A stretch of 64,000 nt of DNA from Nemertoderma westbladi (taxonomy: Eukaryota > Animalia > Xenacoelomorpha): NCBI GenBank assembly GCA_032718475.1, contig JAUCBJ010005607.1:17883-81882 (forward strand). The letters run 5' to 3'. Within the stretch, counting starts at the first letter, position 1; the number at the start of each line of letters is the position of its first letter. The notes below the pieces were generated by a model. That model searched no databases, was not told the origin of the DNA, and saw only the letters and a list, made by a program, of their open reading frames with translations. The translations under genes were made by a program, and so were the position numbers. Shown one piece after another: positions 350 through 44,090 of this stretch.

Positions 350-1326
350 GGACACAAAATTAAAATAATTTCGTTCACAACTTGTCAAAATATGGCTGGC
401 ATATTTATTCAACCGTACATTGCTTTTTATCACTTATTTCTCGAAAACTTTTTATGTGTTGCGAAATGGTTAAATTATGGTTCACCACAATAATCAGCAA
501 TTTTTGGGGTCCTGATTTTGATGAACAATATACGAGTTGCACCAGACATATCAAACTTGTATTTTTCGATTCTGGGTGCAAAATTCGGTGCCAACACGAA
601 ATTTTGAATACTTCAATTAAATGTGACAACAGATTTCTCTCATTTAACAGGTTTGCATTCTATGGAATAAATTAAAATCTAACGAGACATCTCAAACTTG
701 TATTTTTCAGAAGTGGGTGCAAAATGTAGTGCTACATCGTTTTGAAATCCATCAAATATATTAATTGATTGTGTCATCTTGTTACTGGCGTTATATGGGT
801 TTGTGACGGTTGTGAATTCAATGGAATAAGTAAAAATTACATAAGAGTTTTCAAACTTGTTTTTTCGGCGGTCGGGAAAATTTTATGTTCCAGCAACAGA
901 TTTTGAAAATAAGCAAATTGATCAATCTATAGTATCATATGGTTTCTTGCGTTATCCGGGTTTATGGGGGTATTATATATATATATATATATATGGATTA
1001 AATATATAAAAATAAATAAATAAAAACGGCACTGGACATCAAATACTTGTATTTTTGAGAAGTGGGTTCGAAATTTTATGCTAGCACCGAAATTTGCTAA
1101 AATCGACATGCAATGATCTGGAGCTGGAATGTATTCCAAAAAAAACTAAGATTTTTTTTTCTTCGTTGAGATCCAGAATAGTAAAATCTACGTACAAACC
1201 AAAAATCAGACGTTTCCGTTAAAATTTATAAATTTTAGAGGGTGTCAATATGAACCGGAACACCACCCCCCCCCCCCCCCCCACCGCTATTTGTACATTG
1301 CATTTTGTAGCCCGGTACTAATAGGG
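350..1326. mobile_element. Non-autonomous piggyBac-like DNA transposon (MITE), right part; same family as 47869-49427
   Basis: Ends in GCCCGGTACTAATAGGG followed by TTAA (1327-1330), identical to the right end of the copy at 49427. Internal repeats such as 'tcaaacttgtatttttc...gggtgcaaaat' are shared with that copy. Left boundary is approximate. Confidence 0.8.
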
Positions 1327-1439
1327 TTAATCCTAAAATGGACAGATTTTATCAAGATGTGAAATTTGTATTAACATTGCCATAATACTGTTTATTGTGT
1401 TTGATACCATATTTGAAAATTAATATTATTATCATTTAG

Positions 1440-1573
1440 GGAAATCCATTCGTATCCAATAGACCCAGAAATCAATGGAGCAACGAGTTGTACTATAACT
1501 GTGGATGCCGTGTACATTAACAGTGCTGCAAACGTTGGGGCTGCCAGAATTATATTCTGGGGCCAACATCAAG
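1440..1573 (+). CDS. Host gene exon: C-terminal part of a galactose-binding/discoidin-like beta-sandwich domain
   Basis: Acceptor tttag|G at 1439/1440 and donor CAAG|gtacgt at 1573/1574. Open frame EIHSYPIDPEINGATSCTITVDAVYINSAANVGAARIIFWGQHQ. The phase-1 end joins in frame to exon 13804 (G+AT=Asp). The domain call is inferred from the ITVxxVY...NVGxxxIxFWG pattern. Confidence 0.7.
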
Positions 1574-4500
1574 GTACGTATGGGTGCAGCGTAGATTAAT
1601 AGTGCTGAAAACGTTGGCGCTTCCAGAATTATTTTCTGGGGCCAACATGAAGGTACGTATGGGTGCAGCGTAGATTAATAGTGCTACAAACGTTGTGGCT
1701 TCCAGAATTATATTCTGGGGCCAACATCAAGGTACGTATGGGTGCAGCGTAGATTAATAGTGCTGAAAACGTTGGCGCTTCCAGAATTATTTTCTGTGGC
1801 CAACATGAAGGTACGTATGGGTGCAACGTAGATTAACAGTGCTACAAACGTTGTGGCTTCCAGAATTATATTCTGGGGCCAACATGAAGGTACGTATGGG
1901 TGCAGCGTAGATTAATAGTGCTACAAACGTTGTGGCTTCCAGAATTATATTCTGGGGCCAACATCAAGGTACGTATGGGTGCAGCGTAGATTAATAGTGC
2001 TACAAACGTTGTGGCTTCCAGAATTATATTCTGGGGCCAACATGAAGGTACGTATGGGTGTAGAGTAGATTAATAGTGCTGCAAACGTTGGGGCTTCCAG
2101 AATTATATTCTGGGACCAAAATGAAGGCACGTATGGGTGCAGCGCAAGTTAATAGTGCTGCAAACGTTGGTAATTCCAGAATTATATTCTGGGGCCAACA
2201 TGCAGGTACGTATGGGTGCAGCGTAGATTAATAGTGCTACAAACGTTGTGGCTTCCAGAATTATATTCTGGGGCCAACATGAAGGTACGTATGGGTGTAG
2301 AGTAGATTAATAGTGCTGCAAACGTTGGGGCTTCCAGAATTATATTCTGGGACCAAAATGAAGGCACGTATGGGTGCAGCGCAAGTTAATAGTGCTGCAA
2401 ACGTTGGGAATTCCAGAATTATATTCTGGGGCCAACATGAAGGTACGTATGGGTGTAGAGTAGATTAATAGTGCTGCAAACGTTGGGGCTTCCAGAATTA
2501 TATTCTGGGACCAAAATGAAGGCACGTATGGGTGCAGCGCAAGTTAATAGTGCTGCAAACGTTGGGAATTCCAGAATTATATTCTGGGGCCAACATGAAG
2601 GTACGTATGGGTGTAGAGTAGATTAATAGTGCTGCAAACGTTGGGGCTTCCAGAATTATATTCTGGGACCAAAATGAAGGCACGTATGGGTGCAGCGCAA
2701 GTTAATAGTGCTGCAAACGTTGGGAATTCCAGAATTATATTCTGGGGCCAACATGAAGGTACGTATGGGTGTAGAGTAGATTAATAGTGCTGCAAACGTT
2801 GGGGCTTCCAGAATTATATTCTGGGACCAAAATGAAGGCACGTATGGGTGCAGCGCAAGTTAATAGTGCTGCAAACATTGGGAATTCCAGAATTATATTC
2901 TGGGGCCAACATGAAGGTACGTATGGGTGTAGAGTAGATTAATAGTGCTGCAAACGTTGGGGCTTCCAGAATTATATTCTGGGACCAAAATGAAGGCACG
3001 TATGGGTGCAGAGCAAGTTAATAGTGCTGCAAACGTTGGGAATTCCAGAATTATATTCTGGGGCCAACATGAAGGTACGTATGGGTGTAGAGTAGATTAA
3101 TAGTGCTACAAACGTTGGGGCTTCCAGAATTATATTCTGGGGCCAACATGAAGGTACGTATGGGTGTAGAGTAGATTAATAGTGCTGCAAACGTTGGGGC
3201 TTCCAGAATTATATTCTGTGACCAAAATGAAGGCACGTATGGGTGCAGCGCAAGTTAATAGTGCTGCAAACGTTGGGAATTCCAGAATTATATTCTGGGG
3301 CCAACATGAAGGTACGTATGGGTGCAGCGTAGATTAATAGTGCTGCAAACGTTGTGGCTTCCAGAATTATATTCTGGGGCCAACATGAAGGTACGTATGG
3401 GTGTAGAGTAGATTAATAGTGCTGCAAACGTTGGGGCTTCCAGAATTATATTCTGGGACCAAAATGAAGGCACGTATGGGTGCAGCGCAAGTTAATAGTA
3501 CTGCAAACGTTGGGAATTCCAGAATAATATTCTGGGGCCAACATGAAGGTACGTATGGGTGCAGCGTAGGTTAATAGTGCTACAAACGTTGTGGCTTCCA
3601 GAATTATATTCTGGGGCCAACATGAAGGTACGTATGGGTGTAGAGTAGATTAATAGTGCTGCAAACGTTGGGGCTTCCAGAATTATATTCTGGGACCAAA
3701 ATGAAGGCACGTATGGGTGCAGCGCAAGTTAATAGTGCTGCAAACGTTGGGAATTCCAGAATTATATTCTGGGGCCAACATGAAGGTACGTATGGGTGCA
3801 GCGTAGATTAATAGTGCTACAAACGTTGTGGCTTCCAGAATTATATTCTGGGGCCAACATGAAGGTACGTATGGGTGTAGAGTAGATTAATAGTGCTGCA
3901 AACGTTGGGGCTTCCAGAATTATATTTTGGGACCAAAATGAAGGCACGTATGGGTGCAGCGCAAGTTAATAGCGCTGCAAACGTTGGGAATTCCAGAATT
4001 ATATTCTGGGGCCAACATAAAGGTACGTATGGGTGCAGCGTAGGTTAATAGTGCTACAAACGTTGGGGCTTCCAGAATTATATTTTGGGGCCAACATGAA
4101 GGTACGTATGGGTGCAGCGTAGATTAATAGTGCTACAAACGTTGTGGCTTCCAGAATTATATTCTGGGGCCAACATAAAGGTACGTATGGGTGCAGCGTA
4201 GATTAATAGTGCTACAAACGTTGTGGCTTCCAGAATTATATTTTGGGACCAAAATGAAGGCACGTATGGGTGCAGCGCAAGTTAATAGTGCTGCAAACGT
4301 TGGGAATTCCAGAATTATATTCTGGGGCCAACATGAAGGTACGTATGGGTGCAGCGTAGATTAATAGTGCTACAAACGTTGTGGCTTCCAGAATTATATT
4401 CTGGGGCCAACATAAAGGTACGTATGGGTGCAGCGTAGATTAACAGTGCTACAAACGTTGTGGCTTCCAAAATTATATTCTGGGGCCAACATAAAGGTAC

Positions 4501-5813
4501 GTATGGGTGCAGCGTAGATTAATAGTGCTGAAAACGTTGGCGCTTCCAGAATTATATTCTGGGGCCAACATAAAGGTACGTATGGGTGCAGCGTAGATTA
4601 ATAGTGCTACAAACGTTGTGGCTTCCCGAATTATATTCTGGGGCCAACATAAAGGTACGTATGGGTGCAGCGTAGATTAATAGTGCTACAAACGTTGTGG
4701 CTTCCAGAATTATATTCTGGGGCCAACATAAATGTACGTATGGGTGCAGCGTAGATTAACAGTGCTACAAACGTTGTGGCTTCCAGAATTATATTTTGGG
4801 GCCAACATGAAGGTACGTATGGGTGCAGCGTAGATTAATAGTGCTACAAACGTTGTGGCTTCCAGAATTATATTTTGGGGCCAACATGAAGGTACGTATG
4901 GGTGCAGCGTAGATTAATAGTGCTACAAACGTTGTGGCTTCCAGAATTATATTTTGGGGCCAACATGAAGGTACGTATGGGTGCAGCGTAGATTAATAGT
5001 GCTACAAACGTTGTGGCTTCCAGAATTATATTTTGGGGCCAACATGAAGGTACGTATGGGTGCAGCGTAGATTAATAGTGCTGCAAACGTTGGGGATTCC
5101 TGAAATATATTCTAGGCCAACATCAAGGTACGTATGGGTGCAGCGTAGGTTAATAGTGCTACAAACGTTGGGGCTTCCAGAATTATATTCTGGGGCCAAC
5201 ATGAAGGTACGTATGGGTGCAGCGTAGGTTAATAGTGCTACAAACGTTGTGGCTTCCAGAATTATATTCTGGGGCCAACATGAAGGTACGTATGGGTGCA
5301 GCGTAGATTAATAGTGCTACAAACGTTGTGGCTTCCAGAATTATATTCTAGGGCCAACATGAAGGTACGTATGGGTGCAGCGTAGATTAATAGTGCTGCA
5401 AACGTTGGGGATTCCTGAAATATATTCTAGGGCCAACATGAAGGTACGTATGGGTGTAGAGTAGATTAATAGTGCTGCAAACGTTGGGGCTTCCAGAATT
5501 ATATTCTGGGACCAAAATGAAGGCACGTATGGGTGCAGCGCAAGTTAATTGTGCTGCAAACGTTGGGAATTCCAGAATTATATTATGGGGCCAACATGAA
5601 GGTACGTATGGGTGCAGCGCAGGTTAATAGTGCTGCAAACGTTGGGGATTCTTGAATTATATTCTGGGGCCAACATGAATGTACGTATGGGTGGGTGCAG
5701 CGCAGGTTAATAGTGCTGCAAACGTTGGGGCTTCCAGAATTATATTATGGGGCCAACATGAAGGTGCGTATGGGTGCAGCGTAGATTAATAGCGCTGTAA
5801 AAGTTGGGGCTTC
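1516..5813. repeat. 79-bp tandem satellite, left block (about 54 units)
   Basis: Unit attaatagtgctgcaaacgttggggcttccagaattatattctggggccaacatgaaggtacgtatgggtgcagcgtag. The repeated short ORFs recur at multiples of 79 bp (mostly 158 and 237). Confidence 0.97.
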
Positions 5814-7329
5814 TGTGACGGGAGCCAACGGAGTTGGCAGTATCGGCTCCCGACCGGTGTGTGAATTGTACGCGTCGCCGCGTCCGTGAGCTGCTGAGCT
5901 GTCGATTGGATGTGTACTAGTAGGCTGAAGGCCATTGGAAATAATCTGAGTTCTGTTATCAGTATTAATAATCACAGTAATCGATAATAGCACAGTCTGA
6001 ATATAATAGCATGCAATACAACGGTTAGTGACTTTTAATGCAAGTCAGTCTGCAAGTCAAGCGTAACAATGGCGTAGCATTAAAATATTTCTAGTGCGTC
6101 ATTAAAGAGCGTAGCATTAAAATATTTATAGTGCGCTCTATCTAAGAAAACAAATAAGTTCGAATAATATAATAATGTAATAAATGAATAAATGAGTAAA
6201 GTTATTTAAAGTAAATAAATAAATAACGTAATAAAGTAAATAAATAAATAAAGTTACATTATCTCATTCTACCATTCCATACCTATAATCCAATAAATAA
6301 CTCAATATCATCCCGCTTCTAGTCACTTTCAGATTTATACTTTGACTGAAACACAATATAATGTCAACACAGTGACAGTGTTAATTGGTCAGCTCTTATT
6401 GGTTATCTAACCACACCACCAATATCAAGGCTCATGAAATCAGCTTTCCTACATTGTAACCCATTATCATCTCATATCATCTCTTCATCACGAATGAGTA
6501 TATAAGGCAGCACACAATATTCATTAGTTGGTAGTGCCAGTGATTTGTTGTTATGGGTTTATAGATTATTATATGTTAGTAGATTATTTAGTTAATATCG
6601 ATTTAAGTATAATAAACTATAATTTGATATATATAATATATATGGCCAAATATAATTAGGCCAATATATCATACTGTATAATAACGCTGCTTAATGTATC
6701 ATACCAATGAGCGTTATTAAAACAAATAATACTTTAATATTGCAATATTTTACTAGACATAACTCTATATTCCGATCCACAATAAAGGGCACGAAGCATT
6801 ACCCACAAATAAATTCCTTTAGGCACGGAATTTACTTAGATATGTTTTTACATATTCATATTTCACTAAAGTCAATATCTATTGACAAATGATAATGTTT
6901 TTGCCGGAACAGTGACGACGGTCAAAACTGTTCCGGTCTCACAACTGTAAGGAACCAACTAAACTAATAATCAATAATCACAATGGTTATATCATTGACA
7001 CATGTTAAACTACCCCTAAACTACAGGGTGGCCTTAATATCCAATAGATGCGCTCTAATCACCCCCAATGTGCTTTCCCGCCCACCATTGGCTTAACCTT
7101 AATTCTCACCTCGCCACTCCCTGTTGCCACTGTCCCTGTGTGCTAGCCTTACTAGCTTGTTTGTCCCTCTGAGGTGGTTTGACCTCTGAACGTGGCTTAC
7201 GGCGTATATCACCCCAGTTGGTTATGAGGTGACATTATTATTGCTAATAATGCACCTTGCCAACCATATAGGTAAAATGCCACTAATCCCATTTTCGGTG
7301 GGTAATGTACGGAATTGAATCCGCTTACA
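5814..7329 (-). repeat. 3' LTR of BEL element 1 (interrupted by a solo LTR)
   Basis: TGTGACGGGAGCC...GAATCCGCTTACA; matches 12321-12966 once 6033-6911 is removed. Confidence 0.92.
6033..6911. mobile_element. Probable solo LTR of an unrelated family, inserted in the 3' LTR
   Basis: Absent from the sister LTR. Flanked by a GTGAC duplication (6028-6032, 6912-6916). Ends TTTT...AACA, interpreted as a mutated TGTT...AACA. Internal TATAAG and AATAAA. Confidence 0.65.
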
Positions 7330-7951
7330 CTCCCCCGATGCTATCTTCCCGGTGAGAAGATAGCTTCAACCTTAAGTGCGCTTCAATTCCTCTGGAATCC
7401 AATCTAATATTGGATGTGGGGTGGAAATTTCTTCTCAGGGTCGGCTTTCCAGTCCGGCCCCCATGGGTCTGTTGTCACTACCCATCCTTGGTACATCAGC
7501 GAGCTAAGCTATACTAAGGCATCTGGCATCTCTGTTTTAGATGATCGCCCTCACTCCTCACACAATTTTCCTCACGGACTTAATCGTCCCTTCCTCTCTC
7601 ACTAGTCCCTTGGGACTCATCCCTCTCTATGCTCGCTCCCCACACTTGAATCTCGCACCTCTTTCACTTCCTCATACTCTACCACCTCCTCCCCATACTT
7701 CCCCTCTTCCCCCATACTCAACCCGTTTTCGTTGTCACTCTCCACACTCTTATCGGGTCCCACGCATGTGTGCACCATGTCAGTGAGATCCGTCTAATGT
7801 CTCGTCCTCCTGCTCTAGTCAATTGGTCGCCGATCCCTGTAGCTAGTTGGAAAAGGTTATATTCGATTATAGTACATATATTGATTATATTGGATATTTA
7901 TATTGATTAATTCTACGTATGTACATACTAATTGCACTTAATTAATTAAAC

Positions 7952-10645
7952 TTAGGAGTTTGTACTGCTGCATTCGTGTGGTGCCTTCCAGGCACGCTCA
8001 CACCCCTGTCCCTGAGTTCTAGATTGCTCCTCCCGCACCCTCCGGGAGCCATCTAAGTTCCTTGCCCCTATCATCATCTTGCCAGGGCTGCTTCCTTCCT
8101 TCCTGTTTATCCTTGGGGCTACTCATCCTTGCCGATACCGTCTTACCAAGCCCCATTGTTGGTTCTTTGGGCGCAGGTGTAATCAACTACCGGTATCGCT
8201 TTGCAGGTGATCCCACTGAGTGTCCCTCCTGTCTCCATCTATGGTAGTGTCCCACAAGATCATCTCCATCGTGCGCGGCACGTGTTCCCCCAGAAAGTCC
8301 TTGAATTCGATCCTATTATCTGGTGACCATCTGTCCAGGTATCTTTGTGTGTTTATGACCCCTCCGTACAATGACGCTATCGCTACCTCCTGATACGTGA
8401 ATGGTAGTCTCCTCTTGGTGATCTGCTGGTAGGCTTCTATGGTAATATTAAAGAAGCCCCACCGGAACTCCGGGCCTTCATCCTTTGTCGTGACATGACT
8501 CCGACGTCGGCCCACTCATCGAACATCCGGAACTTCTCTTCATCGTCCATCCAGTCGCACTGGCGCTCAAAGTGCCCTCTAAACTTGCACTTCGAACATC
8601 TGTTGTGCAACCTCGGACATGCACCCATCTGATGAGTAGACTCGCGGCAGTAGAGACACGCTGTCCCCTTCTGGAAACGGTATAGACAGTTCTTATGCTG
8701 ATGGGTTAATCTCCCACAGTAATCGCAACCGTGTACCATTGTGTCCCGCCCCAAGTCGTCTTTGGCTCCGCGTGGCCTCCTGGGTCTGTGGAGCCGCTGG
8801 GAGGCAAACATCTGGACGCTGTCCTCCCTACCCATGTCGATGTCCTCCTCCACCCTCGGCATTGTTTCTCCAAACACTACCCGTGGTGCCATCCCCGGTT
8901 GCTCGCCCAGCCTGATCGTACTCGCCGCAAAGTCAATTGCCGGCTCCCCGTGCTCCCAGGTCCGCTTACCAGGTTTGTCCCAGAAGGCTCTCGCCCTGCT
9001 GGCCAACACCACCCTCCCGTCCACCCAGTCCGCATCTGAGTGGCCGATCCTCGCTATCAGCGGCATCGCCCTGAACTTGTCCTCTTCTTCTTCCCCTGCT
9101 GGGGCCTCAATCCTCTCAATCGGTGGCATCGCCCCGAACTCATCCTCTTCTTCCTCCCCTGCCGGGAGCGGATCCAAACCCGGTAGCCAGGTTGATCCAC
9201 TGTGTCCCTTTACAACCTGGTATCCGCCCATAGCCTTCCACCCTTCTAACTCCCTCGGTCTCTTCCTTCCGATGTCCCCCTCAGAGCCAGCTGGCATGGG
9301 CATTCATTGCAACCCCGATGTAGACTGTGTCGGAGTCTCTTCCATCCAACCCAGTTCGTCCCCAAGTCGAAACTCGTCTGAGGTCTCCAATCCCCACCTC
9401 AACTCGTCCAAATCCTGGACTTCGAACTCATACTCCTATCCCCTTATATCCGCTTCTCTGCCTGCTGCCTCCCTTCTCTCTCTCCTGGCAACCTGCTCTA
9501 CTCTCTTCTCCCCGACCCTATCTGCCTCCAGTTTCCTCCATCGTTTGTATGGTGTTTCTACCTCTCTGTCCACTAGGTGTTGGGTATCGTAATATACCGA
9601 CTCGCCCTTCAGCCCCGGATGGTCTACAAGACCACTCTAATGCCACCTTAAAGGCTTTCCTGTGATTCAGAGGTGCTCCTGATAGTAGAAACGCCATCGG
9701 CTCCCTCCCGATAACCTCCGTAATGTATAGGTTTAATAAACCTATCATTATCCAATCCTCCTGTAGGATATATCTCTTCTGATATATATTTATCACTCCC
9801 TTCCGGAACTGATACACTTCCTGCTTTCCTGGTCTCGCTCCCCACTTGAGCGAGTTCGCAAGTTACGCTCCCTATTCTTCCCGGAACTTGTTCCATTCCA
9901 TCGGCTTGTGGCAGACGAGTCCCATCAGTTGGCTCATCGCCACGGCTCCGCAATGTCCCGTGTTTTCCACCAATCCCAATCTCATCATAACAGTCTCGTC
10001 ATAACCATGTAGACTACCTGCATGTCCAGGAGATTGGAGGTGTCCGGTCCAATAATCCTATCCGCATCGTCGCGTATTGCCGATCCCACCTTGATCGTAG
10101 TTTTATGTCTCACTAGCTCCTGCACTGCCCTCGGCAACCGGTTCAGCTTCGGCCTGCTTTTCTTTCCATAGGTCCCTAGGTCGAATAGAAAAATATCTCC
10201 GTTCAGCACTGCCAAGTGCAGCAATATAGTTCTAGCCGATCCTCCCGATCCTTCTCGAGCCCTCATCATCCTCCACAGTCCCTTCGTCGCCTAGGACCAT
10301 GTATCCGCCTCTCTCCACGGAATCTACAAATCTCCTCCACTCCTTCCTCGGTGGTTCCCTCAGATACTTAGGTATCCCAAACTTTGCCTAGTCTCCCTTT
10401 ACAACATAGCGAAGGCGAAGATGCTCATGGATCGTGTTGTCCAACGATGGCGTCCCGTAGGTCCCCACCAGTCATCTCTCGTGCATCTCCCTAAACTGAT
10501 CCTGTAGTGTGTGCGCTTTGTGACCCTTTGGGAGTAGTTTGTAGTATCCCTCCATCTTGTTCTCCGGAAGCCTCTGCGTGAAGTCCACTAACAACTACTT
10601 CCCAGTCTTCTCCGATTTCCTCTTCTTCACTAGTTTATCCGCCAT
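7952..10645 (-). pseudogene. Extra ORF of BEL element: DEDDy (WRN/EXD-like) 3'-5' exonuclease plus triple CCHC zinc-knuckle protein, with stops and frameshifts
   Basis: ATG at 10645. Fragments YMVLGDEG, ILLHLAVLNGDIFLFDL...LPRAVQELVRHKTTIKVGSAIRDDADRI...NLLDMQ (9985-10269) and QKRYILQED (9518-9817). Knuckles CDYCGRLTHQHKNC, CLYCRESTHQMGAC, CSKCKFRGHFERQC (8437-9303). Confidence 0.75.
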
Positions 10646-11114
10646 CACGAGTCGACACACTCTCATAAAGGCTCAGTTTAAGTAAGAGGGTTGTCAAACA
10701 GAATGTTACTTGTTCCGATCAGTGACGGCCTACCTCCTACACTATGTTTTTCGGTATATTTTAAACAAATATACCCCCTACATGCCAATTTTCCCTAAAT
10801 TTGCAATTTTGTCAGTTGCTTTTATTAATGATTCCAGAATTTTTTCCCCCCAGTTGCCATAATTTGTTCATTTTTCAATTTTTACTACTATTTATATTCC
10901 CCCCCCCCCCCTACGTGTGCTGTCATTATCTGCTATCTGGTTACTTACTTAAGTAACCCCTCTAGTTGTATACAGAGAAGAGTAGCTACAGTTTTCTCAT
11001 TACCGTACTAGCTTCCTACCTGACAGCTTCCTGGCTCTGTAACAATACCCTAAGTCTGTACTACGGGCTGTGCGCTACAGTAGTCTAGTTCGTGCAGCCT
11101 ACACGGTCTACACA

Positions 11115-11402
11115 GCCCTCACGTGGCGCCCTCAGTGCCCACAAGTTTACAGTACTGTGTACCCCTCTACTACGGTATGCATAAATACCCCCCTCAATTC
11201 CTCACATGGCGCCCTCAGTGCCCTCAAGTTTACAGTACTGTGTACCCCTCGATTACGGTATACATACATACCCCCCCACAATTCCTCACGTGGCACCCTC
11301 AGTGCCCACAAGTTTAAGGTACTGTGTACCCTTCTACTACGGTATGCATTCATAACCCCCCCCTCTCAATTCCTCGCGTGGCGCTCTCAGTGCCCACAAG
11401 TT
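11115..11402. repeat. About 84-bp tandem repeat (about 3.5 copies) between pol and the extra ORF
   Basis: Recurring cctcacgtggcgccctcagtgcccacaagtttacagtactgtgtaccc. Confidence 0.8.
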
Positions 11403-11669
11403 GTGCGTATGTAAATTTGGTATGTTGGTACATTATTGTACCCGTCTGATGTACGTTATTATAACTACCTATACTTGTATATTATGTATGTTGGTAGGTC
11501 TGTACCCATCAGACGTACATAATATGTACTATCTACATTCAGCATACCTTGGTACTAACTACTTATTTTATTATTTTATTTATTTTGTTTATTTTTATTT
11601 TTATGTGTGGGATGGGCGTCTCGCCCTCATTCCCACTCCCCTCAGTACAATATATTGGACGACTCAACT

Positions 11670-12320
11670 CTAGGGAGACCCTTCCAATAGGCAACACTTT
11701 CCTACTGCCCAACTGTAGGTCTTCCTATCTTTGGCCCCTATCTTTCCTCGAATCCTCACTTTCACGGATCTAATTCTTCCATCTTCGTCGGGGTAGGTTT
11801 CTACTACCCTAGCTAATCTCCAGTGGTTATTGATAATTGTATCATCCGTGATGATTATCAAGTCACCCTTCTTTAGCTTCCTTTGGCTATTCCTCCATTT
11901 ACTCCTCTTGTGTAGTGTTGGAAGGTACTCTTGTATCCACCTTGTCCAATACTTACTGCCTTAGTGACCTTCCAGCTTTGACGCGAATGTATATCGTCTG
12001 GATCCATGTTTCACATGTCAATTGTTGCTGGTCTGTCCATCAGTAGGTGTGCTGGTGTTAGGACATCCAGTGATTCTGGATGGTCGTTCTCGGGATATAG
12101 TGGTCAGCTGTTAATAATGTTCGTATCACCTTTATCTTGACTGGCCCAAACATGTCCACGCCTCAGTGTGTGAATGGTGGGTCGTGGTGCCTCACCCTGT
12201 TGGCCGGTAATAGCGCCATCTCCTGTACGGCCATATCCTTCTTCGTCCGTCGGCAGGTCTGGCACTGCCCCACTACCGCCTTCACCATCTTTCTGAGTTG
12301 GATTCCTAGATCTTTCTGAC
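11670..12320 (-). pseudogene. BEL integrase remnants (zinc-binding region and C-terminal DUF5641-like region; catalytic core deleted)
   Basis: VKAVVGQCQTCRR...MALLPANRVRHHDPPFTH and WRLARVVETYPDEDGRIRSV...CCLLEGSP align with the end of the 1795-aa ORF. Deletion junction at about 12120. Confidence 0.88.
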
Positions 12321-12966
12321 TGTGACGGGAGCCAACGGAGTTGGCAGTATCGGCTCCCGACCGGTGTGTGAATTGTACGTACGCATTGCCGCATCCGTGA
12401 GCTGCTGAGCTGTCGATTGGATGTGTACTAGTAGGCCAAAGGCCGTTGGAAACAATCTGAGTTCTGTTATCAGTATTAATAATCACAGTAATCGATAATA
12501 GCACAGTCTGAATATAATAGCATGCAATACAACGGTTAGTGACGATGGTCAAAACCTTTCCGGTCTCACAACTGTAAGGAACCAACTAAACTAATAATCA
12601 ATAATCACAACGGTTATATCATTGACACATGTTAAATTACCCCTACACTACAGGGTGGCCTTAATTTCCAATAGATGCGCTCTAATCACCCCCAATGTGC
12701 TTCCCAGCCCACCATTGGCTTAACCTGATTAATTCTCACCTCGCCACTCCCTGTTGCCACTGTCCCTGTGTGCTAGCCTTACTAGCTTATTTGTCCCTCT
12801 GAGGTGGTTTGACCTCTCAACTCTCTCTGTGGCTTACGGCATGTATCACCCCAGTTGGTTATGAGGTGACATTATTATTGCTTATAATGCACCTCGCTAA
12901 CCCTATTGGTAAAATGTCACTTATCCCATTTTCGGTGGGTAATGCACGGAATTGAATCCGCTTACA
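12321..12966 (-). repeat. 5' LTR of BEL element 1
   Basis: TGTGACGGGAGCC...CCGCTTACA, 646 bp. Confidence 0.92.
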
Positions 12967-13637
12967 GCTTCCAGAATTATATTATGGGGCCAACATGAAG
13001 GTACGTATGGGTGCAGCGCAGGTTAATAGTGCTGCAAACGTTGGGGTTTCCAGAATTATATTATGGGACCAACATGAAGGTACGTATGGGTGCAGCGCAG
13101 GTTAATAGTGCTGCAAACGTTGGGGATTCCTGAATTTTATTCTGGGGCCAATATGAAGGTACGTATGGGGCGCAGAGTAGATTAATAGTGCTGCAAACGT
13201 TGGAGCTTCCAGAATTATATTTCTGGGGCCAACATTAAGATGTACGTATGGGTGCAATGTAGATTAATAGTGCTGCAAATGTTGGGGCTTCCAGAATTAT
13301 ATTATGGGGCCAACAAGAAGGTACATATGGGTGTAGAGTAGATTAATAGTGCTGCAAACGTTGGGGCTTCCAGAATTATATTCTGGGTCCAACATTAAGG
13401 TACGTATGGGAGCAACGTAGATTAAAAGTGCTGCAAACGTTGTTGGGGCTTCCTGAATTATATTATGGGACCAACATGAAGGTACGTATGGGTGCAGCGT
13501 AGATTAATAGTGCTGCAAACTTTGGGGCTTCCAGAATTATATTATGGGGCCAACATGAAGGTACGTATGGGAGCAACGTAGATTAAAAGTGCTGCAAACG
13601 TTGGGGCTTCCTGAATTATATTTTGGGGCCAACATTG
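12967..13637. repeat. 79-bp satellite, right block (about 8 more diverged units)
   Basis: Same unit resumes in register after the TSD; small indels present. Confidence 0.95.
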
Positions 13638-13803
13638 AGCTCAAACATAACTAATTCCAGTATAGATCATAGCAACTAAGTATAACTGAACATTGCATAA
13701 TGTTATACATAATGTAGTAATTAGAATCATGTTAATCTTGAAGAACCATCATTAGAACCACAATTTTGACTCAACATTGGATATTATATTTTAATTATTT
13801 CAG

Positions 13804-14514
13804 ATTCATGTAGTGGAAACTATGTGTCCCATGGATCATGGTGGCCATTGAACAACAACTATGCCGGAAATGACATATTGGAAATTGCTAAACCACTTTC
13901 CTCCCACTCGCAAAATGATAACCACCCAGCAAACACTAACAACATAAAGGGCACTGTAAGATATGTCCCTGGACCAAGTGGCATCGCTAATCAAGCCATG
14001 GAATTTGCCAATGGATACATTTCATTCCCACATGCGGCTAACCAGTTAGTGGACAACACCTTCACCATAGTTGCATTTTTTAAGCCAGGCAACCAAGCTG
14101 GCCCTATATTAGGTTTTGGTGGTCACAACGAAAGAGGTACACATTTGTGGAACTATCTTCAACCGACTTCCCTATGGTACAGCTGTGGTGGCGCACAATC
14201 AATGACAGCAGATAATGCAATCACTACTGACACGTGGTACATGATTTCAGTGGGGGTCAATGCTGAAACTGGAAAAACACTTCTCTATAGTCGAATTGTA
14301 GGGACAAATATAGTAACAACGAAACTGTTTGATTCTCATTTTACTGGCAGATGTACTCCAGATATTACCAGCAATTTCAACATAGGATTTGATGAGAAGG
14401 ATTCAAGAAAACAGCTCGGGCATGTCGCCCATGTCCGATATTACGGCTGTTATTATACTCTGACACAGCTTAATGACATTTATGAGGAGGGTCTGGCTTT
14501 TGAACAGGAAAATG
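13804..14514 (+). CDS. Host gene exon encoding a concanavalin A-like/LamG-like domain
   Basis: ttttcag|AT acceptor and AATG|gtaagt donor; 711 bp, phase 1-1. Motifs WWPL...GP.G...A.EF, FTIVAFFKP, WYMISV, FNIG, G.VAHVRYY...LT..QL..IY. Confidence 0.85.
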
Positions 14515-14953: not shown

Positions 14954-17450
14954 TCGTAGAGACCCTCTGATAGTGCAGGGTCCGCGGTCCCGAGGATGTC
15001 GTAGAGACCCTCTGGTAGTGCAGGGTCCGTGGTCCCGAGGATGGAGGCCATAGAGACCCTCTGGTGGTGTAGGGTCCGCGGTCCCGAGGATGGAGGCCGT
15101 AGAGACCCTCTGATAGTGCAGGGTCCGTGGTCCCGAGGATGTCGTAGAGACCCTCTGATAGTGCAGGGTCCGCGGTCCCGAGGATGGAGGCCATAGAGAC
15201 CCTCTGGTAGTGCATGGTCTGCGGTCCCGAGGATGGAGGCCGTAGAGACCCTCTGGTAGTGCAGGGTCCGCGGTCCCGAGGATGGAGGCCGTAGAGACCC
15301 TCTGGTAGTGCAGGGTCCGCGGTCCCGAGGATGGAGGCCGTAGAGACCCTCTGGTAGTGCAGGGTCCGCGGTCCCGAGGATGGAGGCCGTAGAGACCCTC
15401 TGGTAGTGCAGGGTCCGTGGTCCCGAGGATGGAGGCCGTAGAGACCCTCTGGTAGTGCAGGGTCCGCGGTCCCGAGGATGGAGGCCGTCGAGACCCTCTG
15501 GTAGTGCAGGGTCCGCGGTCCCGAGGATGGAGGCCGTAGAGACCCTCTGGTAGTGCAGGGTCCGCGGTCCCGAGGATGGAGGCCGTAGAGACCCTCTGGT
15601 AGTGCAGGGTCCGTGGTCCCGAGGATGGAGGCCGTCGAGACCCTCTGGTAGTGCAGGCTCCGCGGTCCCGAGGATGGAGGCCGTAGAGACCCTCTGGTAG
15701 TGCAGGGTCCGCGGTCCCGAGGATGGAGGCCGTAGAGACCCTCTGGTAGTGCAGGGTCCGTGGTCCCGAGGATGGAGGCCGTAGAGACCCTCTGGTAGTG
15801 TAGGGTCCGCGGTCCCGAGGATGGAGGCCGTCGAGACCCTCTGGTAGTGCAGGGTCCGTGGTCCCGAGGATGTAGGCGTAGAGACCCTCTGATAGTGCAG
15901 GGTCCGCGGTCCCGAGGATGGAGGCTGTAGAGACCCTCTGGTAGTGCAGGGTCTGCAGTCCCGAGGATGGAGGCCATAGAGACCCTCTGATAGTGCAGGG
16001 TCCGCGGTCCCGAGGATGTCGTAGAGACCCTCTGGTAGTGCAGGGTCCGCGGTCCCGAGGATGGAGGCCGTAGTGACCCTCTGATAGTGCAGGGTCCGTG
16101 GTCCCGAGGATGGAGGCCATAGAGACCCTATGATAATGCAGGGTCCGCGGTCCCGAGGATGTCGTAGAGACCCTCTGGTAGTACAGGGTCCGTGGTCCCG
16201 AGGATGGAGGCCATAGAGACCCTATGATAATGCAGGGTCCGCGGTCCCGAGGATGTCGTAGAGACCCTCTGGTAGTGCAGGGTCCGCGGTCCCGAGGATG
16301 GAGGCCGTAGAGACCCTATGATAATGCAGGGTCCGCGGTCCCGAGGATGTCGTAGAGACCCTCTGATAGTGCAGGATTCGTGGTCCCGAGGATGGAGGCT
16401 GTAGAGACCCTCTGGTAGTGCAGGGTCCGTGGTCCCGAGGATGGAGGCCATAGAGACCCTATGATAATGCAGGGTCCGCGGTCCCGAGGATGTCGTAGAG
16501 ACCCTCTGATAGTGCAGGATTCGTGGTCCCGAGGATGGAGGCTGTAGAGACCCTCTGGTAGTGCAGGGTCCGTGGTCCCGAGGATGGAGGCCATAGAGAC
16601 CCTATGATAATGCAGGGTCCGCGGTCCCGAGGATGTCGTAGAGACCCTCTGATAGTGCAGGATTTGTGGTCCCGAGGATGGAGGCTGTAGAGACCCTTTG
16701 GTAGTGCAGGGTCCGTGGTCCCGAGGATGGAGGCCATAGAGACCCTATGATAATGCAGGGTCCGTGGTCCCGAGGATGTCGTAGAGACCCTCTGGTAGTG
16801 CAGGGTCCGCGGTCCCGAGGATGGAGGCCGTAGAGACCCTCTGATAGTGCAGGGTCCGCGGTCCCGAGGATGTCGTAGAGACCCTCTGGTAGTGCAGGGT
16901 CCGCGGTCCCGAGGATGGAGGCCGTAGTGACCCTCTGATAGTGCAGGATTCGTGGTCCCGAGGATGGAGGCTGTAGAGACCCTCTGGTAGTGCAGGGTCC
17001 GCGGTCCCGAGGATGGAGGCTGTAGAGACCCTCTGGTAGTGCAGGGTCCGCGGTCCCGAGGATGTCGTAGAGACCCTCTGATAGTGCAGGGTCCGCAGTC
17101 CCGAGGATGGAGGCCGTCGAGACCCTCTGGTAGTGCAGCGTCCGCGGTCCCGAGGCTGGAGGCCGTAGAGACCCTCTGGTAGTGCTCTGTCCGCGGTCCC
17201 GAGGATGGAGGCTGTAGAGACCCTCTGGTAGTGCAGGGTCCGTGGTCCCGAGGATGGAGGCCGTAGAGACCCTCTGGAAGTGCAGGATCTGCGGTCCCGA
17301 GGATGTCATAGAGACCCTCTGGTAATGCGGGGTCCGCTGTCCCGAGGATGCAGGCCGTAGAGACCCTATGATAATGCAGGGTCCGCGGTCCCGAGGATGT
17401 TGTAGAGACCCTCTGGTAATGCAGGTCCGCAGTCCGAGGTTGGAGGCCGT
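14954..17450. repeat. GC-rich 49/45-bp minisatellite
   Basis: Unit gaggatggaggccgtagagaccctctggtagtgcagggtccgcggtccc, with a 45-bp variant (gaggatgtcgtag). The overlapping ORFs have a 49-aa period. Confidence 0.96.
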
Positions 17451-18070: not shown

Positions 18071-18492
18071 TTTTGTTTGTATGAAGTTCGTATCCAATGG
18101 GTTTTCGGCGTGTTTGTTTGTGTGAAGTTCGTATCCAATGGGTTTTCGGCGTGTTTGTTTGTATGAAGTTCGTATCCATTGGGTTTTCGGCGTGTTTGTT
18201 TGTATGAAGTTCGTATCCAATGGGTTTTCGGCGTGTTTGTTTGTGTGAAGTTCGTATCCAATGGGTTTTCGGCGTGTTTGTTTGTATGAAGTTCGTATCC
18301 AATGGGTTTTCGGCGTGTTTGTTTGTGTGAAGTTCGTATCCAATGGGTTTTCGGCGTGTTTGTTTGTATGAAGTTCGTATCCAATGGGATTTCGGCGTGT
18401 TTGTTTGTGTGAAGTTCGTATCCAATGGGTTTTCGGCGTGTTTGTTTGTGTGAAGTTCGTATCCAATGGGTTTTCGGCGTGTTTGTTTGTGT
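18071..18492. repeat. 41-bp minisatellite (about 10 copies)
   Basis: Unit gttttcggcgtgtttgtttgt(a/g)tgaagttcgtatccaatgg. Confidence 0.95.
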
Positions 18493-19971: not shown

Positions 19972-20643
19972 CTGATGGTTGCCAATACGAATCATACTGG
20001 CCTTTGAGTAGGCAACATGGAGCCAGAGACACGGGTGGAAACCTCCATGGCACAATTAGAGGAAACGTTGAGTATGGTACAGGCCCAGCTGGAGTCGTCA
20101 ATCAGGCAACATTTTTCAATGGGTCTTACATTTCAATTGAACATCGACATGAATTATCCACAGCAGCATCCACCATAGTGGCTTTTGTAAAGCATACAGC
20201 TATAGATGACACAACAAGGGGCGAAACAAGGCTAGGTGATATTGTGTTTGGGTATCAACATCGCGATATTGTAAAGACAGGTGCTGCAGTTTTTTTTAAT
20301 CTTGAACCTTATTTACATATATACTACGTGCATCAAAGTAAAAGGGCGCGCATGAGTGTAACTAATGTGAACAAGATTCGTAACAAGTGGTACATGGTAG
20401 CTGTATCAATAGATAACATATTAAAAGATGGCCTGTTATTCATACAAGAAGTGGATACCAATGTCACATGGCGCCTACCTTTTAAGAGTTATGGCCGTTC
20501 GTTTCGAGATGCGAACTTCCCTTTCATCATTGGCCAAATGCAAAACGGATATGTTGCACATGTTCAATACTACAGCTGTGCTTTAAGTGTAATGGACTTG
20601 AAAGAGGTTTATAGTAAAACATTGGATGAAGAAAGGAAAATAG
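19972..20643 (+). CDS. Host gene exon encoding a second ConA/LamG-like domain
   Basis: tgtttcag|CT acceptor and ATAG|gtgaga donor; 672 bp, phase 1-1. Paralogous to exon 13804 (YWPL, GPAGVVNQA.FFNGSYIS, TIVAFVK, WYMVAV, VAHVQYY.C). Confidence 0.85.
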
Positions 20644-21139: not shown

Positions 21140-23735
21140 TAGATAGATTTATTTATACATTATGTAAAAACAATAACAAATACACCAAACAATGTACCGG
21201 TATAAAGGTATTGTCCAACATAACATATAGCGGATTACCCCTAAAGCTTTGCAGCTTATTTCCAAGGGGGTCGTTTATGTTACCTGGTTACAAATTCAAT
21301 ATTACACTACGCTAACTTAAAACCAATATAAAACGTAATTACACTATGTACATGTACAACTTTACCGAGAGCGTGACAATGTCCGACTCAACGATAAAGA
21401 TGTAATGTACAGAACAATTTATTATAAAACGTATTTACAGTATAAATAGTAAAATTAATAATTAATAAACTAATAACTTACTGTAGGACTATTGTACCTA
21501 ATTTTACATTGCACACGGAGGTGAGATTCAACTGCAGATTTAAAAGAATGTTGATTATTTATGTTTTTATTTCATTAGGCAGAGCGTTCCAATTTTTAAT
21601 ACTGTTAAAAAAGAAAGTATCAGATTCAAAGGATTTACAATTCGGGAGGTAGAAGTTTGAAGCACTAGCTCTGGTACTGTAAGAGTGTGTATTGCGTACT
21701 CTGTTGAATTTTTGTTTTAGGTAATTGGGACATTTACCATTATACACTTTATGCACATGGTTAAGGCGTAGCTGCTTAACTCTACTATCTAAGTTAAGTA
21801 GTCCAGATTCAGAAAAGTCATCTGGAGTTAGGTGGTGCCGAGGTGTGTAGTCTTTAATAAATCGTACTACTTTATTCTGAGCTACTTGTAATTTACATTT
21901 AAGCTGTTTGGTTAAGCTTTCATACCAAGAAGAGCACGCATAGTCCATGTTACACTGTATTAAAGAAGAGCAAAGTAACCTGCGGGAGTCGGTATTTAAA
22001 CTATTTTTATTTCTGTATAGAAACCTAAGCCTACTGTTAACTTTCGAGAAAATATTTTTCACTGTACTTTCTCCTGATAAGCAGTTATCCAATGTGGCGC
22101 CTAAATATTTAACTTCCTTTTTATTTTCAATCTTATGTCCATTACTAGTGACTTCAAACTTAGTTACCTTCTTTAACTTTCTTTTGGAACCAAACAAAAT
22201 ACTTTCAGTCTTACCGTAGTGAATGGATAGCTTATTATCAACCAACCACTCATTACAGGATTCTAGAACTGCACTTAACTTTTGGGAAATATGGATAGGA
22301 TCTTTATGAGAGAAAATAAGAGCACTGTCGTCGGCATATAAAATGAGTTTAAAATCGGGATCTATACTACTTATCATATCATTTACATAGCATACAAAAA
22401 GCAGAGGACCTAATATACTACCGTGCGGTACACCACAGGTAATCTCTTGTACAGTAGACTGCGATTTGCCAATGACTACAGTTTGACCTCTGTCTGACAG
22501 GTACGACTTGAACCAGTCTATAGAACCTACACCCATCAGGCCTAACTTACCAAGCAGAATTTCGTGATCTACAGTATCGAAAGCCTTTTGTAGGTCCAAC
22601 ATTACTATACCAGTATATAAACCCTTTGCGTTATTACATCTAATTGTATCAGTTAAGTTAATAAGGCAGGTGTCTGTAGAATATGATTTACGAAAACCAG
22701 ACTGAAGTTTATAGATCAGATTTAGCCTACTAAGATGTGCTTCCAGCTGTAGAAAAACAGAACGTTCTAGAATTTTAGATACAATACTTAAGATACGAAC
22801 AGGTCTGTAATTACAGGGTTCTACTTTACTATTCTTTTTATACAGAGGAACAACCTTAGCTAATTTCAGTTCGTCTGGTACTACATTATCTACGATAGAG
22901 TAATTAATAATAAAAGTAATAGGCACTTTAAGTACTTCAGCACCATCCTTAAGAAAACGGGCTGGTATTAGATCTAGACCGGTACTTTTTGAGGCTGATA
23001 GGCTAAGTAGATTTTTAAAAACGAAATCCTCAGAAACGGGTTTTAAAAATAACTTTTCTGAATTTTGTAACTTTTCTAAATAAAAAATATTTAGAGTTTC
23101 GGACCCTATACTATATTTATTACTTGATAACGGTAACTTCTTAACTAAATTAGAGGCAACATTAGTAAAATAATTATTAAATAAATTACTAACTAGAGTA
23201 TGATCATGAATCAGCTCACCGTTATCTTGCAGAACAATATTCGATTTAGATTTAAGGTTTTTATAACCTAAAGATTTTAGGGTAGACCATAGACTTTTAG
23301 GATTATCTTTATTCTCACTTATTTTGTTGTATAAATATTCAGATTTAGCTTTTTTTATTTCCCGTTGGACAATGATTTCTATATTTGCAGTAATTATTAT
23401 TATAATCAGCTAAAACACAGTATTTCCTAAATTTATACAAATAGTTATCTCTTTCTCTGATATTACTAAGAATAACCGAGGTCATCCAGGGCTCAGTGCG
23501 TTGTTTAAGACTAATTTCTTTAATTGGTGCTATAGTATTAAGTGCCTTTAGAAATATATCTTTAAAAACAGTGTAGGCAAGGTTAATGTCAGCGGCCTTA
23601 AAACAGGGTTCCCAGTCAGAATTAACTAACAAACCTAAAAAGCGTTCCTTTCTGTAATTTTTCATAGACCTAACTGTTACTGTTTTATGATCCCGGAAAA
23701 AAGATTTTTGTGTCTTTCTTGTGCAAAAAACTATA
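21140..23735 (-). mobile_element. 5'-truncated CR1/L2-group LINE
   Basis: RT ORF 21559-22926 plus upstream ORF2 fragment (23345-23730, PWMT motif). 3' UTR stem-loop 'gacccccttggaaataagc...ttaggggtaatcc', and AATAAA near 21150. Confidence 0.88.
21559..22926 (-). CDS. LINE reverse transcriptase (ORF2 fragment)
   Basis: [37 protein letters not shown] and KYLG motifs. Confidence 0.9.
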
Positions 23736-25133
23736 AAATAAAATTTAAAATTTATTTGATATACATGTAGGTGGTATTGCAATCTAAGAGATAAATTACG
23801 CATTAATTAATTGTCAGAATAATATCAAGGGTATATTTATAATAATGAATTAATAAATACATACAATATTGCAATGTTATATATAGTTAATATACGGAAA
23901 TAATAATAACCTTAAGAAAATAAAACTGAATAATCACTAAATAATAATTTATTTCACAATAATTCATTTAAATCAATTTGCTTGAAATCACATCCCTCCA
24001 GAGGTCGGGTGGGGGGGGGGGGGGGGGGGGCTGACACCACGCTGAGCCTGAGGTGGTCCATCATCAGGGGTCTGGGGTCACAGCCCCCAACAGGGTTCAG
24101 CTGGTGGGCGATCCCCAAGTAGGCGAGGGAATCCCGACTGGGTTTTGTCTTGGTTTGATACGCGTCGCCGCGTTCGCTTACTGTGGCTGATTATGGGCTG
24201 AAAGGCCGAAGGCCGCTATAATAAAAGAGTTTGGTGTTAATGTTGTTGATCTCTGATAGGTATAGATACCGGTAATACAGCACAAGTACAATAAATGTGT
24301 TTGGTGACGATGACAGTTGAAAACCGTTCGACATGTACACTCTATAAAACCAACTGAAGGCACAATTAATGGGTAACGGTTATATATAATTACTACACAT
24401 GGAATATTGCTATCTACAGTTTGGCCTGGCCAATGGATCTAGGACACTTCCCCCCGGACAGTTCCCCCCGGACACTTCCCCCCCGGACACTTCCCCCCCC
24501 GGACACTTGCCCCCTGGACACTTCCCCCCCGCCCAAGTAGGACACTTCCTCCCCGGACACTTCCCCCCGGACAGTTCTCCCCCGGACACTTCCCACAGGA
24601 CAGTTCCCCCCCGGACACTTCCCCCCCCGTCCAAGTAGGACACTTCCCCCCCCGGACACTTGCCCCCCGGACACTTCCCCCCCGCCCAAGTAGGACACTT
24701 CCTCCCCGGACACTTCCCCCCGGACAGTTCTCCCCCGGACACTTCCCACAGGACAGTTCCCCCCCGGACACTTCCCCCCCGTCCAAGTAGGACACTTGCC
24801 CCCCGGACACTTCCCCCCCCAGACACTTCCCCCCCGGACACTTCCCCCTGGACAGTTACCCCCCGGACACTTCCCCCCCGGACAGTTCCCCCCCGGACAC
24901 TTCCCCCCCGCCCAAGTAGGACACTTCCCCCCCGGACACTTTCCCCCCGGACACTTCCCCCCCGGGCACTTGCCCCCGGACACTTCCCCCCCAGTTAAAG
25001 TGTTAATCTGGGTGCATCAAAGCAATAAACAAAGGTTAAAGATGGTTACAGGACAAGTTGTATTTAGACAAGTTTTTTCAAAATTATAAAAGAAACATTT
25101 TTATAGTCATATTTTGTTTGTTTTTCTTTTAAT

Positions 25134-25335: not shown

Positions 25336-25842
25336 GGCAGTTCCCTGAGTGCCCGTGGTAAAAGACTTAAGACCATTTTGAAATAATTAATTCATGTTTG
25401 TATCATCAGATAATAAATTGACTAAGCCTAAAGTAGGAGCTGTATTGAATGTTAACCAATTTAATATATAAATTACTACAATATTATATAATTCAACAAA
25501 ATCCTATTAAAAATATTGCAAGTAACCAGGAAATTTAATATGTAGTGTGTATAATATCTCTATAGTATGTATAGTAATATGTATATCAATATGTAATGCT
25601 GAACACAGAATACAGGTCGACGCATGTCGATTTTACCCTGGAGAGGAAAGTTTTGATTGCAACAATAATATTCATCCCCATCTGCTACAATTTGAAGAAG
25701 ACTATCACATAATAATACCTATAATTAAAACAATTAATTATTTATTATAATTCTATAGTTAATAAAAACAGTATATCATTCGGGGGATGGAATTTATAGG
25801 TAATCTAATTAATTGTTTAAAGATTAGCAAACAATAGTAGAC

Positions 25843-36797: not shown

Positions 36798-37238
36798 TTA
36801 TTTTATTAATGAAAGTGTCCACAGTAATAACAATAAATCATTGTACCGCAAATTAGAGGTGAATATATTCATTGCTCCGGGATTTTTCGGCACCTCGGTT
36901 AGATAATACAGACAAAATAGACCGCACTGAGTCGAATGTGGCGCTTGAAATATTTTACGATTCCAAGTATGCCTTTGGGTATATTTATGCAACCAATATG
37001 ATATTTTCGGTGGTGGGGCTTTACCAAACGAATCTAAATAATAAGCAATTCTGTTAACCACGCGTACGCAAGACCAGTGTTGCCTCGGTAGGCCTATACG
37101 TTGATTATTAATAATAAATGAATAATTTTGTTTATGCTTATTTTTTTTTGCGTGTATTAGGTGTAATTGGTCGATTGCGTAAACACCGATGTATTCGGGC
37201 CCCACCGGGAATTTCGCTAATTGTATAGAGTCCAACAT
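36798..37238 (-). CDS. Polinton adenain-like cysteine maturation protease
   Basis: QHW (His), YYLDSFG (Asp), Q...CGLFCLYYL (Gln/Cys). Confidence 0.9.
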   Translation of the reverse strand: MLDSIQLAKFPVGPEYIGVYAIDQLHLIHAKKNKHKQNYSFIINNQRIGLPRQHWSCVRVVNRIAYYLDSFGKAPPPKISYWLHKYTQRHTWNRKIFQAPHSTQCGLFCLYYLTEVPKNPGAMNIFTSNLRYNDLLLLLWTLSLIK

Positions 37239-37332
37239 TTTAGCGTGCGCGTATCATTAAAAGTTTAAGATAATTTTTCTAATTCCACAGGCGGTGCGGC
37301 TTCGCTTACTTTGTACTATGCGAGATCTTTAT

Positions 37333-38566: not shown

Positions 38567-38603
38567 TGTTAAGTTACATGAAAATATCACGACATTTATT
38601 ATT

Positions 38604-44073: not shown

Positions 44074-44090
44074 TGTTGATAGGTAGTCAC

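What the first reader, a model, noticed from the sequence alone, without database searches (positions are those of the whole stretch)
1440..5813. Satellite DNA born from a host exon's 3' end and splice donor
Seen in sequence: the first satellite unit is the last 58 nt or so of a coding exon (INSAANVGAARIIFWGQHQ) plus the donor AG|GTACGT and about 21 nt of intron. About 60 copies follow, most carrying AAG|GTACGT (some GCACGT). Reading through the first donor gives GGT ACG TAT GGG TGC AGC GTA GAT TAA, so use of any downstream donor would add a premature stop. Only the first donor joins in frame to exon 13804. Inference: a traceable origin for a satellite, and an array of decoy 5' splice sites that could bind U1, trigger NMD or tune expression by copy number.
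Basis: partly seen in the sequence, partly recalled or inferred. Interest (0 to 1): 0.75.

Follow-up and report, generated by a model that had tools for sequence, protein, structure and literature searches.

The report
Exon-end repeat with 62 splice donors
A 79-base piece covering the end of a likely lectin-like exon and its splice signal is repeated 62 times into the next intron of an animal gene, a known kind of repeat in which cells likely keep using the first signal, so it is probably a by-product rather than a regulatory device.

Summary
The array is real and longer than reported: 62 donor-phase copies of a 79-nt unit, 54 at 1513-5813 and 8 at 12967-13639, split by a 7.15-kb LTR element with a 5-bp target duplication. 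The local origin gains support. Public DNA contigs of this species hold a second array end that stops 18 nt after the donor and runs into unique DNA, so the unit is about 61 nt of exon plus 18 nt of intron, not 58+21. The only 5' flank seen is this exon. An imperfect direct repeat (9 of 13 nt) at the junction likely seeded the duplication; 2- and 3-unit higher-order blocks indicate later unequal exchange. The exon is probably coding (splice phase, GC step, third-position variants), but there is no RNA and no homologue. The decoy/NMD idea has no support: donor positions are not detectably better conserved than the rest, and 12 copies are GC. The class is published (human F7, 6-16, CBS, LMNB2, PDGF), where the first donor dominates, and this scan has met it in other genomes. 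New member of a known kind; interest 0.23.

The parts
1440..1573 (+). Likely coding exon (134 nt, enters in phase 2, leaves in phase 1); peptide EIHSY...IFWGQHQ, possibly the C-terminal strands of an F5/8-type-C-like domain
   Evidence: AG with T-rich tract at 1439 like the two other acceptors; GC 23% before, 44-46% inside; only 1 of 3 frames open; Atlas lead only; no Pfam, PDB or RNA support
1500..1512 (+). Exon-side arm of an imperfect direct repeat; partner is 1579-1591
   Evidence: 9 of 13 identical at offset 79, binomial p 0.002
1513..1591 (+). Founder unit: last 61 nt of the exon, donor, first 18 nt of intron
   Evidence: 4 differences from the array consensus; contigs of 981, 2021 and 1863 nt match 1513-1591 and then leave; loose end at donor+18
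1574..1575 (+). First (presumed authentic) donor, AAG|GTACGTAT
   Evidence: sequence; 9 of 11 matches to a recalled donor consensus, the same score as 43 later copies
1597..1599 (+). In-frame TAA reached if any later donor is used
1513..5813 (+). Left block of the array, 54 donor-phase sites, with 2-unit and 3-unit higher-order stretches
   Evidence: identity at lag 2 0.954 vs lag 1 0.882 (units 8-23), lag 3 0.982 vs lag 1 0.89 (units 23-32)
5814..12966 (-). Degenerate LTR retroelement inserted inside one unit; LTRs 5814-7329 (with an extra 884 nt) and 12321-12966, TG...CA ends
   Evidence: GCTTC target duplication at 5809-5813 and 12967-12971; LTRs differ at 28 of 632 aligned nt; integrase-end fragments 76-83% identical to the ORF at 56719-62106; the junction is also in run X1
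12967..13639 (+). Right block, 8 donor-phase sites, more diverged; it stops at the exon-end phase, probably truncated
   Evidence: mean pairwise identity 0.879 vs 0.917 in the left block
13804..14514 (+). Next exon, LamG-like (concanavalin-A-type) domain, phase 1 to phase 1
   Evidence: Pfam Laminin_G_3 E 5e-5, below the curated cut-off; Atlas 0.98; best library hit E 5e-11, a protein of LamG_3 repeats
19972..20643 (+). Third exon, paralogous LamG-like domain, phase 1 to phase 1
   Evidence: 31% identical to the previous exon, E 2e-19; Pfam E 0.02

Best explanation
This is a 62-copy, 79-nt tandem repeat whose first copy spans the end of a likely coding exon and its splice donor, and it likely arose on the spot and is likely spliced out whole from the first donor. 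Steps: (1, inferred) slippage or unequal exchange between two imperfect 13-nt direct repeats, one in the exon and one in the intron head, duplicated 1513-1591; (2, shown as pattern, mechanism inferred) unequal exchange amplified it and left 2- and 3-unit blocks; (3, shown) an LTR element inserted into one unit, and the 8 copies beyond it are more diverged; (4, inferred) this copy lost its original 3' end, which another copy or allele in the species retains; (5, inferred from the F7 experiments) the most upstream donor wins, so the 61 later sites are mostly silent passengers, and any leak would carry the stop at 1597.
For: Second array end at donor+18 followed by 255 nt or more of unlike DNA in runs X1 and X2, matching long contigs that cover exactly 1513-1591 in X1, X2 and X3 (X2 and X3 are one sample). 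All 5 loose-end rows shown on the repeat are this exon, that end or the LTR (11 of 13 rows shown). No other copy in the window. 9 of 13 microhomology. Other copies or alleles keep the exon and 16-20 nt of acceptor but change upstream of 1420-1424; their 3 listed exon variants are all at third codon positions, 2 silent (chance 0.037). Phase 1 at all three donors. No excess conservation of donors. Precedent: PMC1557585; microhomology origin: PMC6947457, PMC13167724.
Against: No homologue of the 44-aa peptide and none that carries both exons, so the exon and the 1573-13804 join rest on sequence features. The unique part of the exon is open by chance in 20% of shuffles, the whole in 6%. The 23 exon-2 variants I classed (of the rows shown; 22 rows hidden) are 5 silent, 18 replacing, 0 stop, as expected without constraint, so the gene is not shown to be functional. 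The sequence after the second end still resembles the unit start (8 of 11 after a 2-nt gap, by eye; 13 of 25 overall, p about 0.12 over 7 offsets), so it may be a decayed unit and not pristine intron. No array-free allele or relative was seen. In 6-16 and CBS the next two donors are used too. The F7 work is in mammalian cells.
Confidence: 0.62

Rival explanations
1. Regulatory decoy array: later donors take part of the splicing, the products carry the 1597 stop and are degraded, or the sites bind U1, so that copy number tunes output.
For: 44 of 62 sites have the same 9-mer as the first; all later use is unproductive; 6-16 and CBS use the next two donors (PMC1557585 introduction).
Against: No excess conservation at donor columns (p 0.49); one GC variant spread to 12 copies with the higher-order blocks; the AGs inside the unit lack the T-rich tract of the gene's acceptors (T 24-29% vs 59-71%), so decoy exons are unlikely; in F7 deleting monomers did not change splicing.
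Confidence: 0.1
2. The unit is wholly exon-derived: an older duplication of the exon's last 79 nt made a new donor at the first junction, so the 'intron head' is itself a decayed exon copy.
For: 1495-1515 matches the intron head at 13 of 21; this window's array stops exactly at the exon-end phase, 13639; the second end stays partly unit-like.
Against: The 61-nt part differs from the consensus at 4 sites while the 18-nt part matches the exon at only about 60%, a sharp step; the second array ends at donor+18, as a 61+18 unit predicts; no GT follows 13639.
Confidence: 0.12
3. The gene copy is dead or untranscribed, so donor choice does not matter and the array is plain intronic junk in a pseudogene.
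For: Exon-2 variants show no deficit of replacements (5 silent of 23, expectation 0.22); the introns hold an LTR element and two other arrays.
Against: Frames of 236 and 223 codons are open with intact phase-1 splice sites; no indel and no stop is listed in exon 2 in two runs; excess replacements also fit a diversifying recognition gene.
Confidence: 0.1
4. A pre-existing dispersed satellite landed here, and its decayed first copy was exonised or only mimics an exon end.
For: Edge copies of arrays are often the most diverged (general knowledge); the exon copy alone has C at 1515 and G at 1543; no protein homologue.
Against: Only this exon appears as 5' flank among the loose ends shown; 45 of 61 copies have a stop in the exon frame while the first copy is open; no copy elsewhere in the window.
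Confidence: 0.06

Closest known systems
Human F7 intron 7 37-bp VNTR (Borensztajn et al. 2006, PMC1557585; abstract, passages and whole Discussion read)
   Same: First monomer spans the exon-intron boundary; identical donors repeat into the intron.
   Different: F7 unit is 4 exon + 33 intron nt in 5-9 copies; here 61 + 18 nt in 62 copies over 12 kb, split by an LTR element, in a non-mammalian animal; splicing is untested here.
Human 6-16 intron 2, CBS intron 13, LAMIN B2 (100 bp) and PDGF intron 4 (81 bp) minisatellites (as listed in the introduction of PMC1557585; originals not read)
   Same: Boundary-spanning units of similar size (81, 100 bp) with reiterated donors.
   Different: 10-25 copies. 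6-16 and CBS use two later donors as well; LAMIN B2 and PDGF only the first. Which applies here is unknown.
Microhomology-seeded tandem duplication (Haber and Louis model, read through passages of PMC6947457; PMC13167724, abstract and opening paragraphs)
   Same: Single-copy segment flanked by short direct repeats duplicates, then expands.
   Different: The arms here are imperfect (9 of 13), and no array-free ancestral allele was seen.

Membership tests
Exon-intron-boundary minisatellite (F7 type) | Head-to-tail array of 10-100-nt units at one locus | tested here: met
   79-nt period, 54.4 + 8.4 copies
Exon-intron-boundary minisatellite (F7 type) | First monomer spans an exon end and its donor | tested here: inconclusive
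   Met in sequence, but the exon is inferred; no RNA run listed, no homologue
Exon-intron-boundary minisatellite (F7 type) | Donor sequence reiterated unchanged downstream | tested here: met
   44 of 62 share the first 9-mer; 50 of 62 keep GT
Exon-intron-boundary minisatellite (F7 type) | Most upstream donor used in transcripts | not testable with these tools
   No RNA holder listed
Exon-intron-boundary minisatellite (F7 type) | Copy number varies between individuals | not testable with these tools
   Only short-read contigs, which collapse arrays
Satellite DNA in the classical sense (long, abundant, often many loci) | Arrays of tens of kb or more, or at several unrelated loci | tested here: inconclusive
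   About 5 kb here; at least one more array end in the species, no unrelated 5' flank shown; no whole genome held
Microhomology-mediated tandem duplication | Short direct repeats at the two ends of the duplicated segment | tested here: inconclusive
   Imperfect 9 of 13 arm; may instead be a decayed unit
Decoy exon / decoy splice-site element | Conserved internal splice sites that change intron removal | tested here: inconclusive
   No excess donor conservation, low power; weak internal acceptors; effect on splicing untested. The definition is recalled, from no call.
F5/8 type C (discoidin-like) domain, for the exon peptide | Profile match to PF00754 | tested here: not met
   No Pfam family at E up to 1 for the 44-aa piece; Atlas rank 13, score 0.91, family on 41% of members: a lead only

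The most novel reading that the evidence does not exclude
The exon-plus-array module has been copied among paralogues of a polymorphic lectin-like gene family, and array length acts as a splicing rheostat: the more intact donors follow the exon, the more transcript is diverted to a stop-carrying form, while GC variants and the LTR insertion reset the dial. It would be the largest natural test of 5' splice-site choice outside mammals.
Probability: 0.08. Interest if true: 0.6.

Novelty: new member of a known kind. Interest (0 to 1): 0.23.

Why it matters
It is a clean record of how a tandem repeat is born from coding DNA: founder copy, likely seeding microhomology, higher-order blocks, an LTR insertion that isolates 8 copies, and a second array end that marks the junction. 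With 44 identical donors it would be a good invertebrate test of the 'first donor wins' rule. It also warns annotators of false exon extensions. As biology it repeats a class described in human genes, and no function is indicated.

Tried and rejected
No whole genome is held, so no genome-wide count of the 79-mer. No RNA holder listed; this is no evidence on expression. Run X4 has no contig on the exon or repeat; absence in contigs proves nothing. Contig depth over the repeat (hundreds to thousands against 8-70 on flanks) is not a copy number and was not used as one. Metagenome scans found nothing: 24-nt motif, exon-2 protein. Protein searches with exon 2 or the exon 2/3 alignment gave no hit; the profile-free library search gave 5 LamG proteins, none with the exon-1 peptide. 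Pfam and PDB gave nothing significant for the 44-aa peptide. The second array's flank motif is not in the window. PMC10078293 (passages) had nothing on boundary-spanning repeats. Rejected: a coding repeat (79 is not a multiple of 3; all six frames hit stops within three units); an assembly artefact (unit variants, the LTR junction and the 3' flank recur in public contigs, though X1 or X2 may be the source sample); a link to the 41-nt array at 18072 (a 12-nt match seen by eye, not reported by blastn at E up to 1). Searches for an invertebrate case in print listed none; two searches listed no exon-end satellite by title or abstract start. The library lacks most subscription papers, and no supplements were opened.

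Full report
Observation. Tandem Repeats Finder reports a 79-nt array at 1512-5813 (54.4 copies, 90% matches) and the same unit at 12967-13635 (8.4 copies). I count 62 donor-phase sites, 54 left and 8 right. Between them lies a 7153-nt element with TG...CA long terminal repeats and a GCTTC target duplication that splits one unit. Its LTRs differ at 28 of 632 aligned bases, and it carries integrase-end fragments 76-83% identical to the long ORF at 56719-62106. The donor 9-mers are 44 AAG|GTACGT, 12 AAG|GCACGT and 6 others. Reading through the first donor meets TAA at 1597-1599. 20 of 62 donors are in phase with 13804, so the stop, not the phase, makes later donors unproductive.

Is the first copy an exon end? 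For: an AG with a T-rich tract at 1439 like the acceptors at 13803 and 19971; GC rises from 23% to 44-46%; 1 of 3 frames is open, and it is the one that joins 13804 in phase. The next two exons are paralogous LamG-like domains (31% identical, E 2e-19; Pfam E 5e-5 and 0.02, both under the curated cut-off; Atlas 0.98), and all three donors are phase 1, as is usual for shuffled extracellular modules (general knowledge). Public DNA contigs hold versions that keep 1420/1424-1506 and then run into 320-350 nt of unlike upstream DNA, so conservation starts at the acceptor. Their 3 listed exon variants are all third-position, 2 silent and 1 N to K (chance 0.037). The Atlas gives unnamed clusters first, then DUF5000 (0.92) and F5/8 type C (0.91, 41% of members), a lead only. 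Against: shuffles are open in 6% (whole exon) and 20% (unique part) of trials; Pfam and PDB find nothing; no homologue holds both exons. The 23 exon-2 variants that I classed are 5 silent, 18 replacing and 0 stop, equal to the neutral expectation (22 rows of that table were hidden). No RNA run was listed, so expression is open.

Origin. The contigs change this. In X1, X2 and X3 (X2 and X3 are one sample) long contigs of 981, 2021 and 1863 nt match 1513-1591 at 8-10 differences and then leave. Laid on the right block, the 2021-nt contig is repeat-like upstream, and loose ends in X1 and X2 show the repeat ending 18 nt after a donor, followed by at least 255 nt of unlike DNA whose first 13 nt are not in the window. 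So the species has a second array end, allele or paralogue, at the place a 1513-1591 unit predicts, and the window's own 3' end is probably cut short. The exon-intron similarity then reads as an imperfect direct repeat, 1500-1512 against 1579-1591 (9 of 13, p 0.002), the kind of seed proposed by Haber and Louis (passages of PMC6947457; abstract and opening of PMC13167724). Caveat: the DNA after the second end is still somewhat unit-like (8 of 11 after a 2-nt gap, then 5 of 14, counted by eye), so an older all-exon duplication is not excluded.

Dispersed or local? Of 13 loose-end rows, 11 were shown; the 5 that lie on the repeat are the exon (2), the second end (2) and the LTR start (1). X1 had 16 contigs laid, 4 of them partly. 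No unrelated 5' flank appears, and the window has no other copy. Contigs show presence, not absence, X1 or X2 may be the source sample, and no whole genome was available.

Turnover. Units 8-23 are more alike at lag 2 (0.954) than lag 1 (0.882); units 23-32 at lag 3 (0.982 vs 0.89). The right block averages 0.879 pairwise identity, the left 0.917. The exon copy differs from the consensus at 4 sites; two of its letters are private, two are shared with copies 5, 38, 42 and 3, 6, 46. In X1 a single contig covers 1424-1600 with one difference, so I see no sign that the array diversifies the exon end.

Function. Donor columns hold 5 variant letters in 9 columns, the rest 57 in 70 (Fisher p 0.49). 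The test is weak and the units are not independent, but it shows neither protection nor purging, and the GC variant simply travels with the higher-order blocks. The AGs within the unit have 24-29% T upstream against 59-71% at the gene's acceptors, so internal decoy exons are unlikely. The stop at 1597 has its counterpart in the exon's shifted frame and needs no selection.

Comparison. PMC1557585 (abstract, passages, whole Discussion) describes minisatellites whose first monomer spans an exon-intron boundary in human F7, 6-16, CBS, LAMIN B2 and PDGF. In F7 the later donors are functional but silent, the most upstream intact one is chosen, and deleting monomers did not change the pattern; 6-16 and CBS use two later donors as well. 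This locus has the same anatomy with more copies and a larger exon share. I found that paper, before the scan's notes; these list 46 findings with the same words in at least 21 genomes, including a 56-copy case and invertebrate cases reported to use the first donor (unchecked AI notes, 8 shown). Nothing was noted before on this genome.

Verdict. Real, locus-born with fair support, function not indicated. New member of a known kind, interest 0.23. The rheostat reading stays at about 0.08-0.1 until RNA is seen.

Noticed in passing
window 5814-12966: The LTR element is rearranged: integrase-end fragments (about 11673-12300, minus strand) lie next to one LTR, a zinc-knuckle gag-like ORF (8437-9303) further on, an 84-nt repeat at 11117-11402, and the other LTR has an extra 884 nt. 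It looks non-autonomous; 76-83% identical to the long ORF at 56719-62106 (BEL/Pao-like by recalled features).
   Followed up: partly
window 13785-13824: A contig in X1 and X2 shares only the acceptor and the first 21 nt of exon 2, with unlike DNA on both sides: possibly a paralogue with a different second exon, or a fragment.
   Followed up: no
window 13804-14514: Exon 2 is highly polymorphic between contigs, with 18 replacing of 23 classed variants and no indel listed; X2 also has a different intron end (13 differences in 13717-13836) and a 127-nt back-joint. It may be a diversifying recognition gene family.
   Followed up: partly
window 14955-17450 and 18072-18492: The next intron holds two more arrays (49-nt unit, 52 copies; 41-nt unit, 10 copies), not related to the exons.
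   Followed up: no
window 36800-48100: Compact minus-strand gene cluster that looks like a Polinton/Maverick (protein-primed polymerase, packaging ATPase, integrase, capsid-like and protease-like ORFs; labels recalled from the ORF list, not tested), with a 163-nt repeat at 48187-48900.
   Followed up: no
window 1180-1335: Short segments upstream of the exon draw extremely deep contig cover in X1-X3, and contigs skip 60-110 nt between them: probably the ends of an abundant miniature transposon.
   Followed up: no
window 21559-23806 (-) and 25828-27255 (+): Two reverse-transcriptase ORFs of non-LTR retrotransposons (616 and 475 aa) downstream of exon 3.
   Followed up: no
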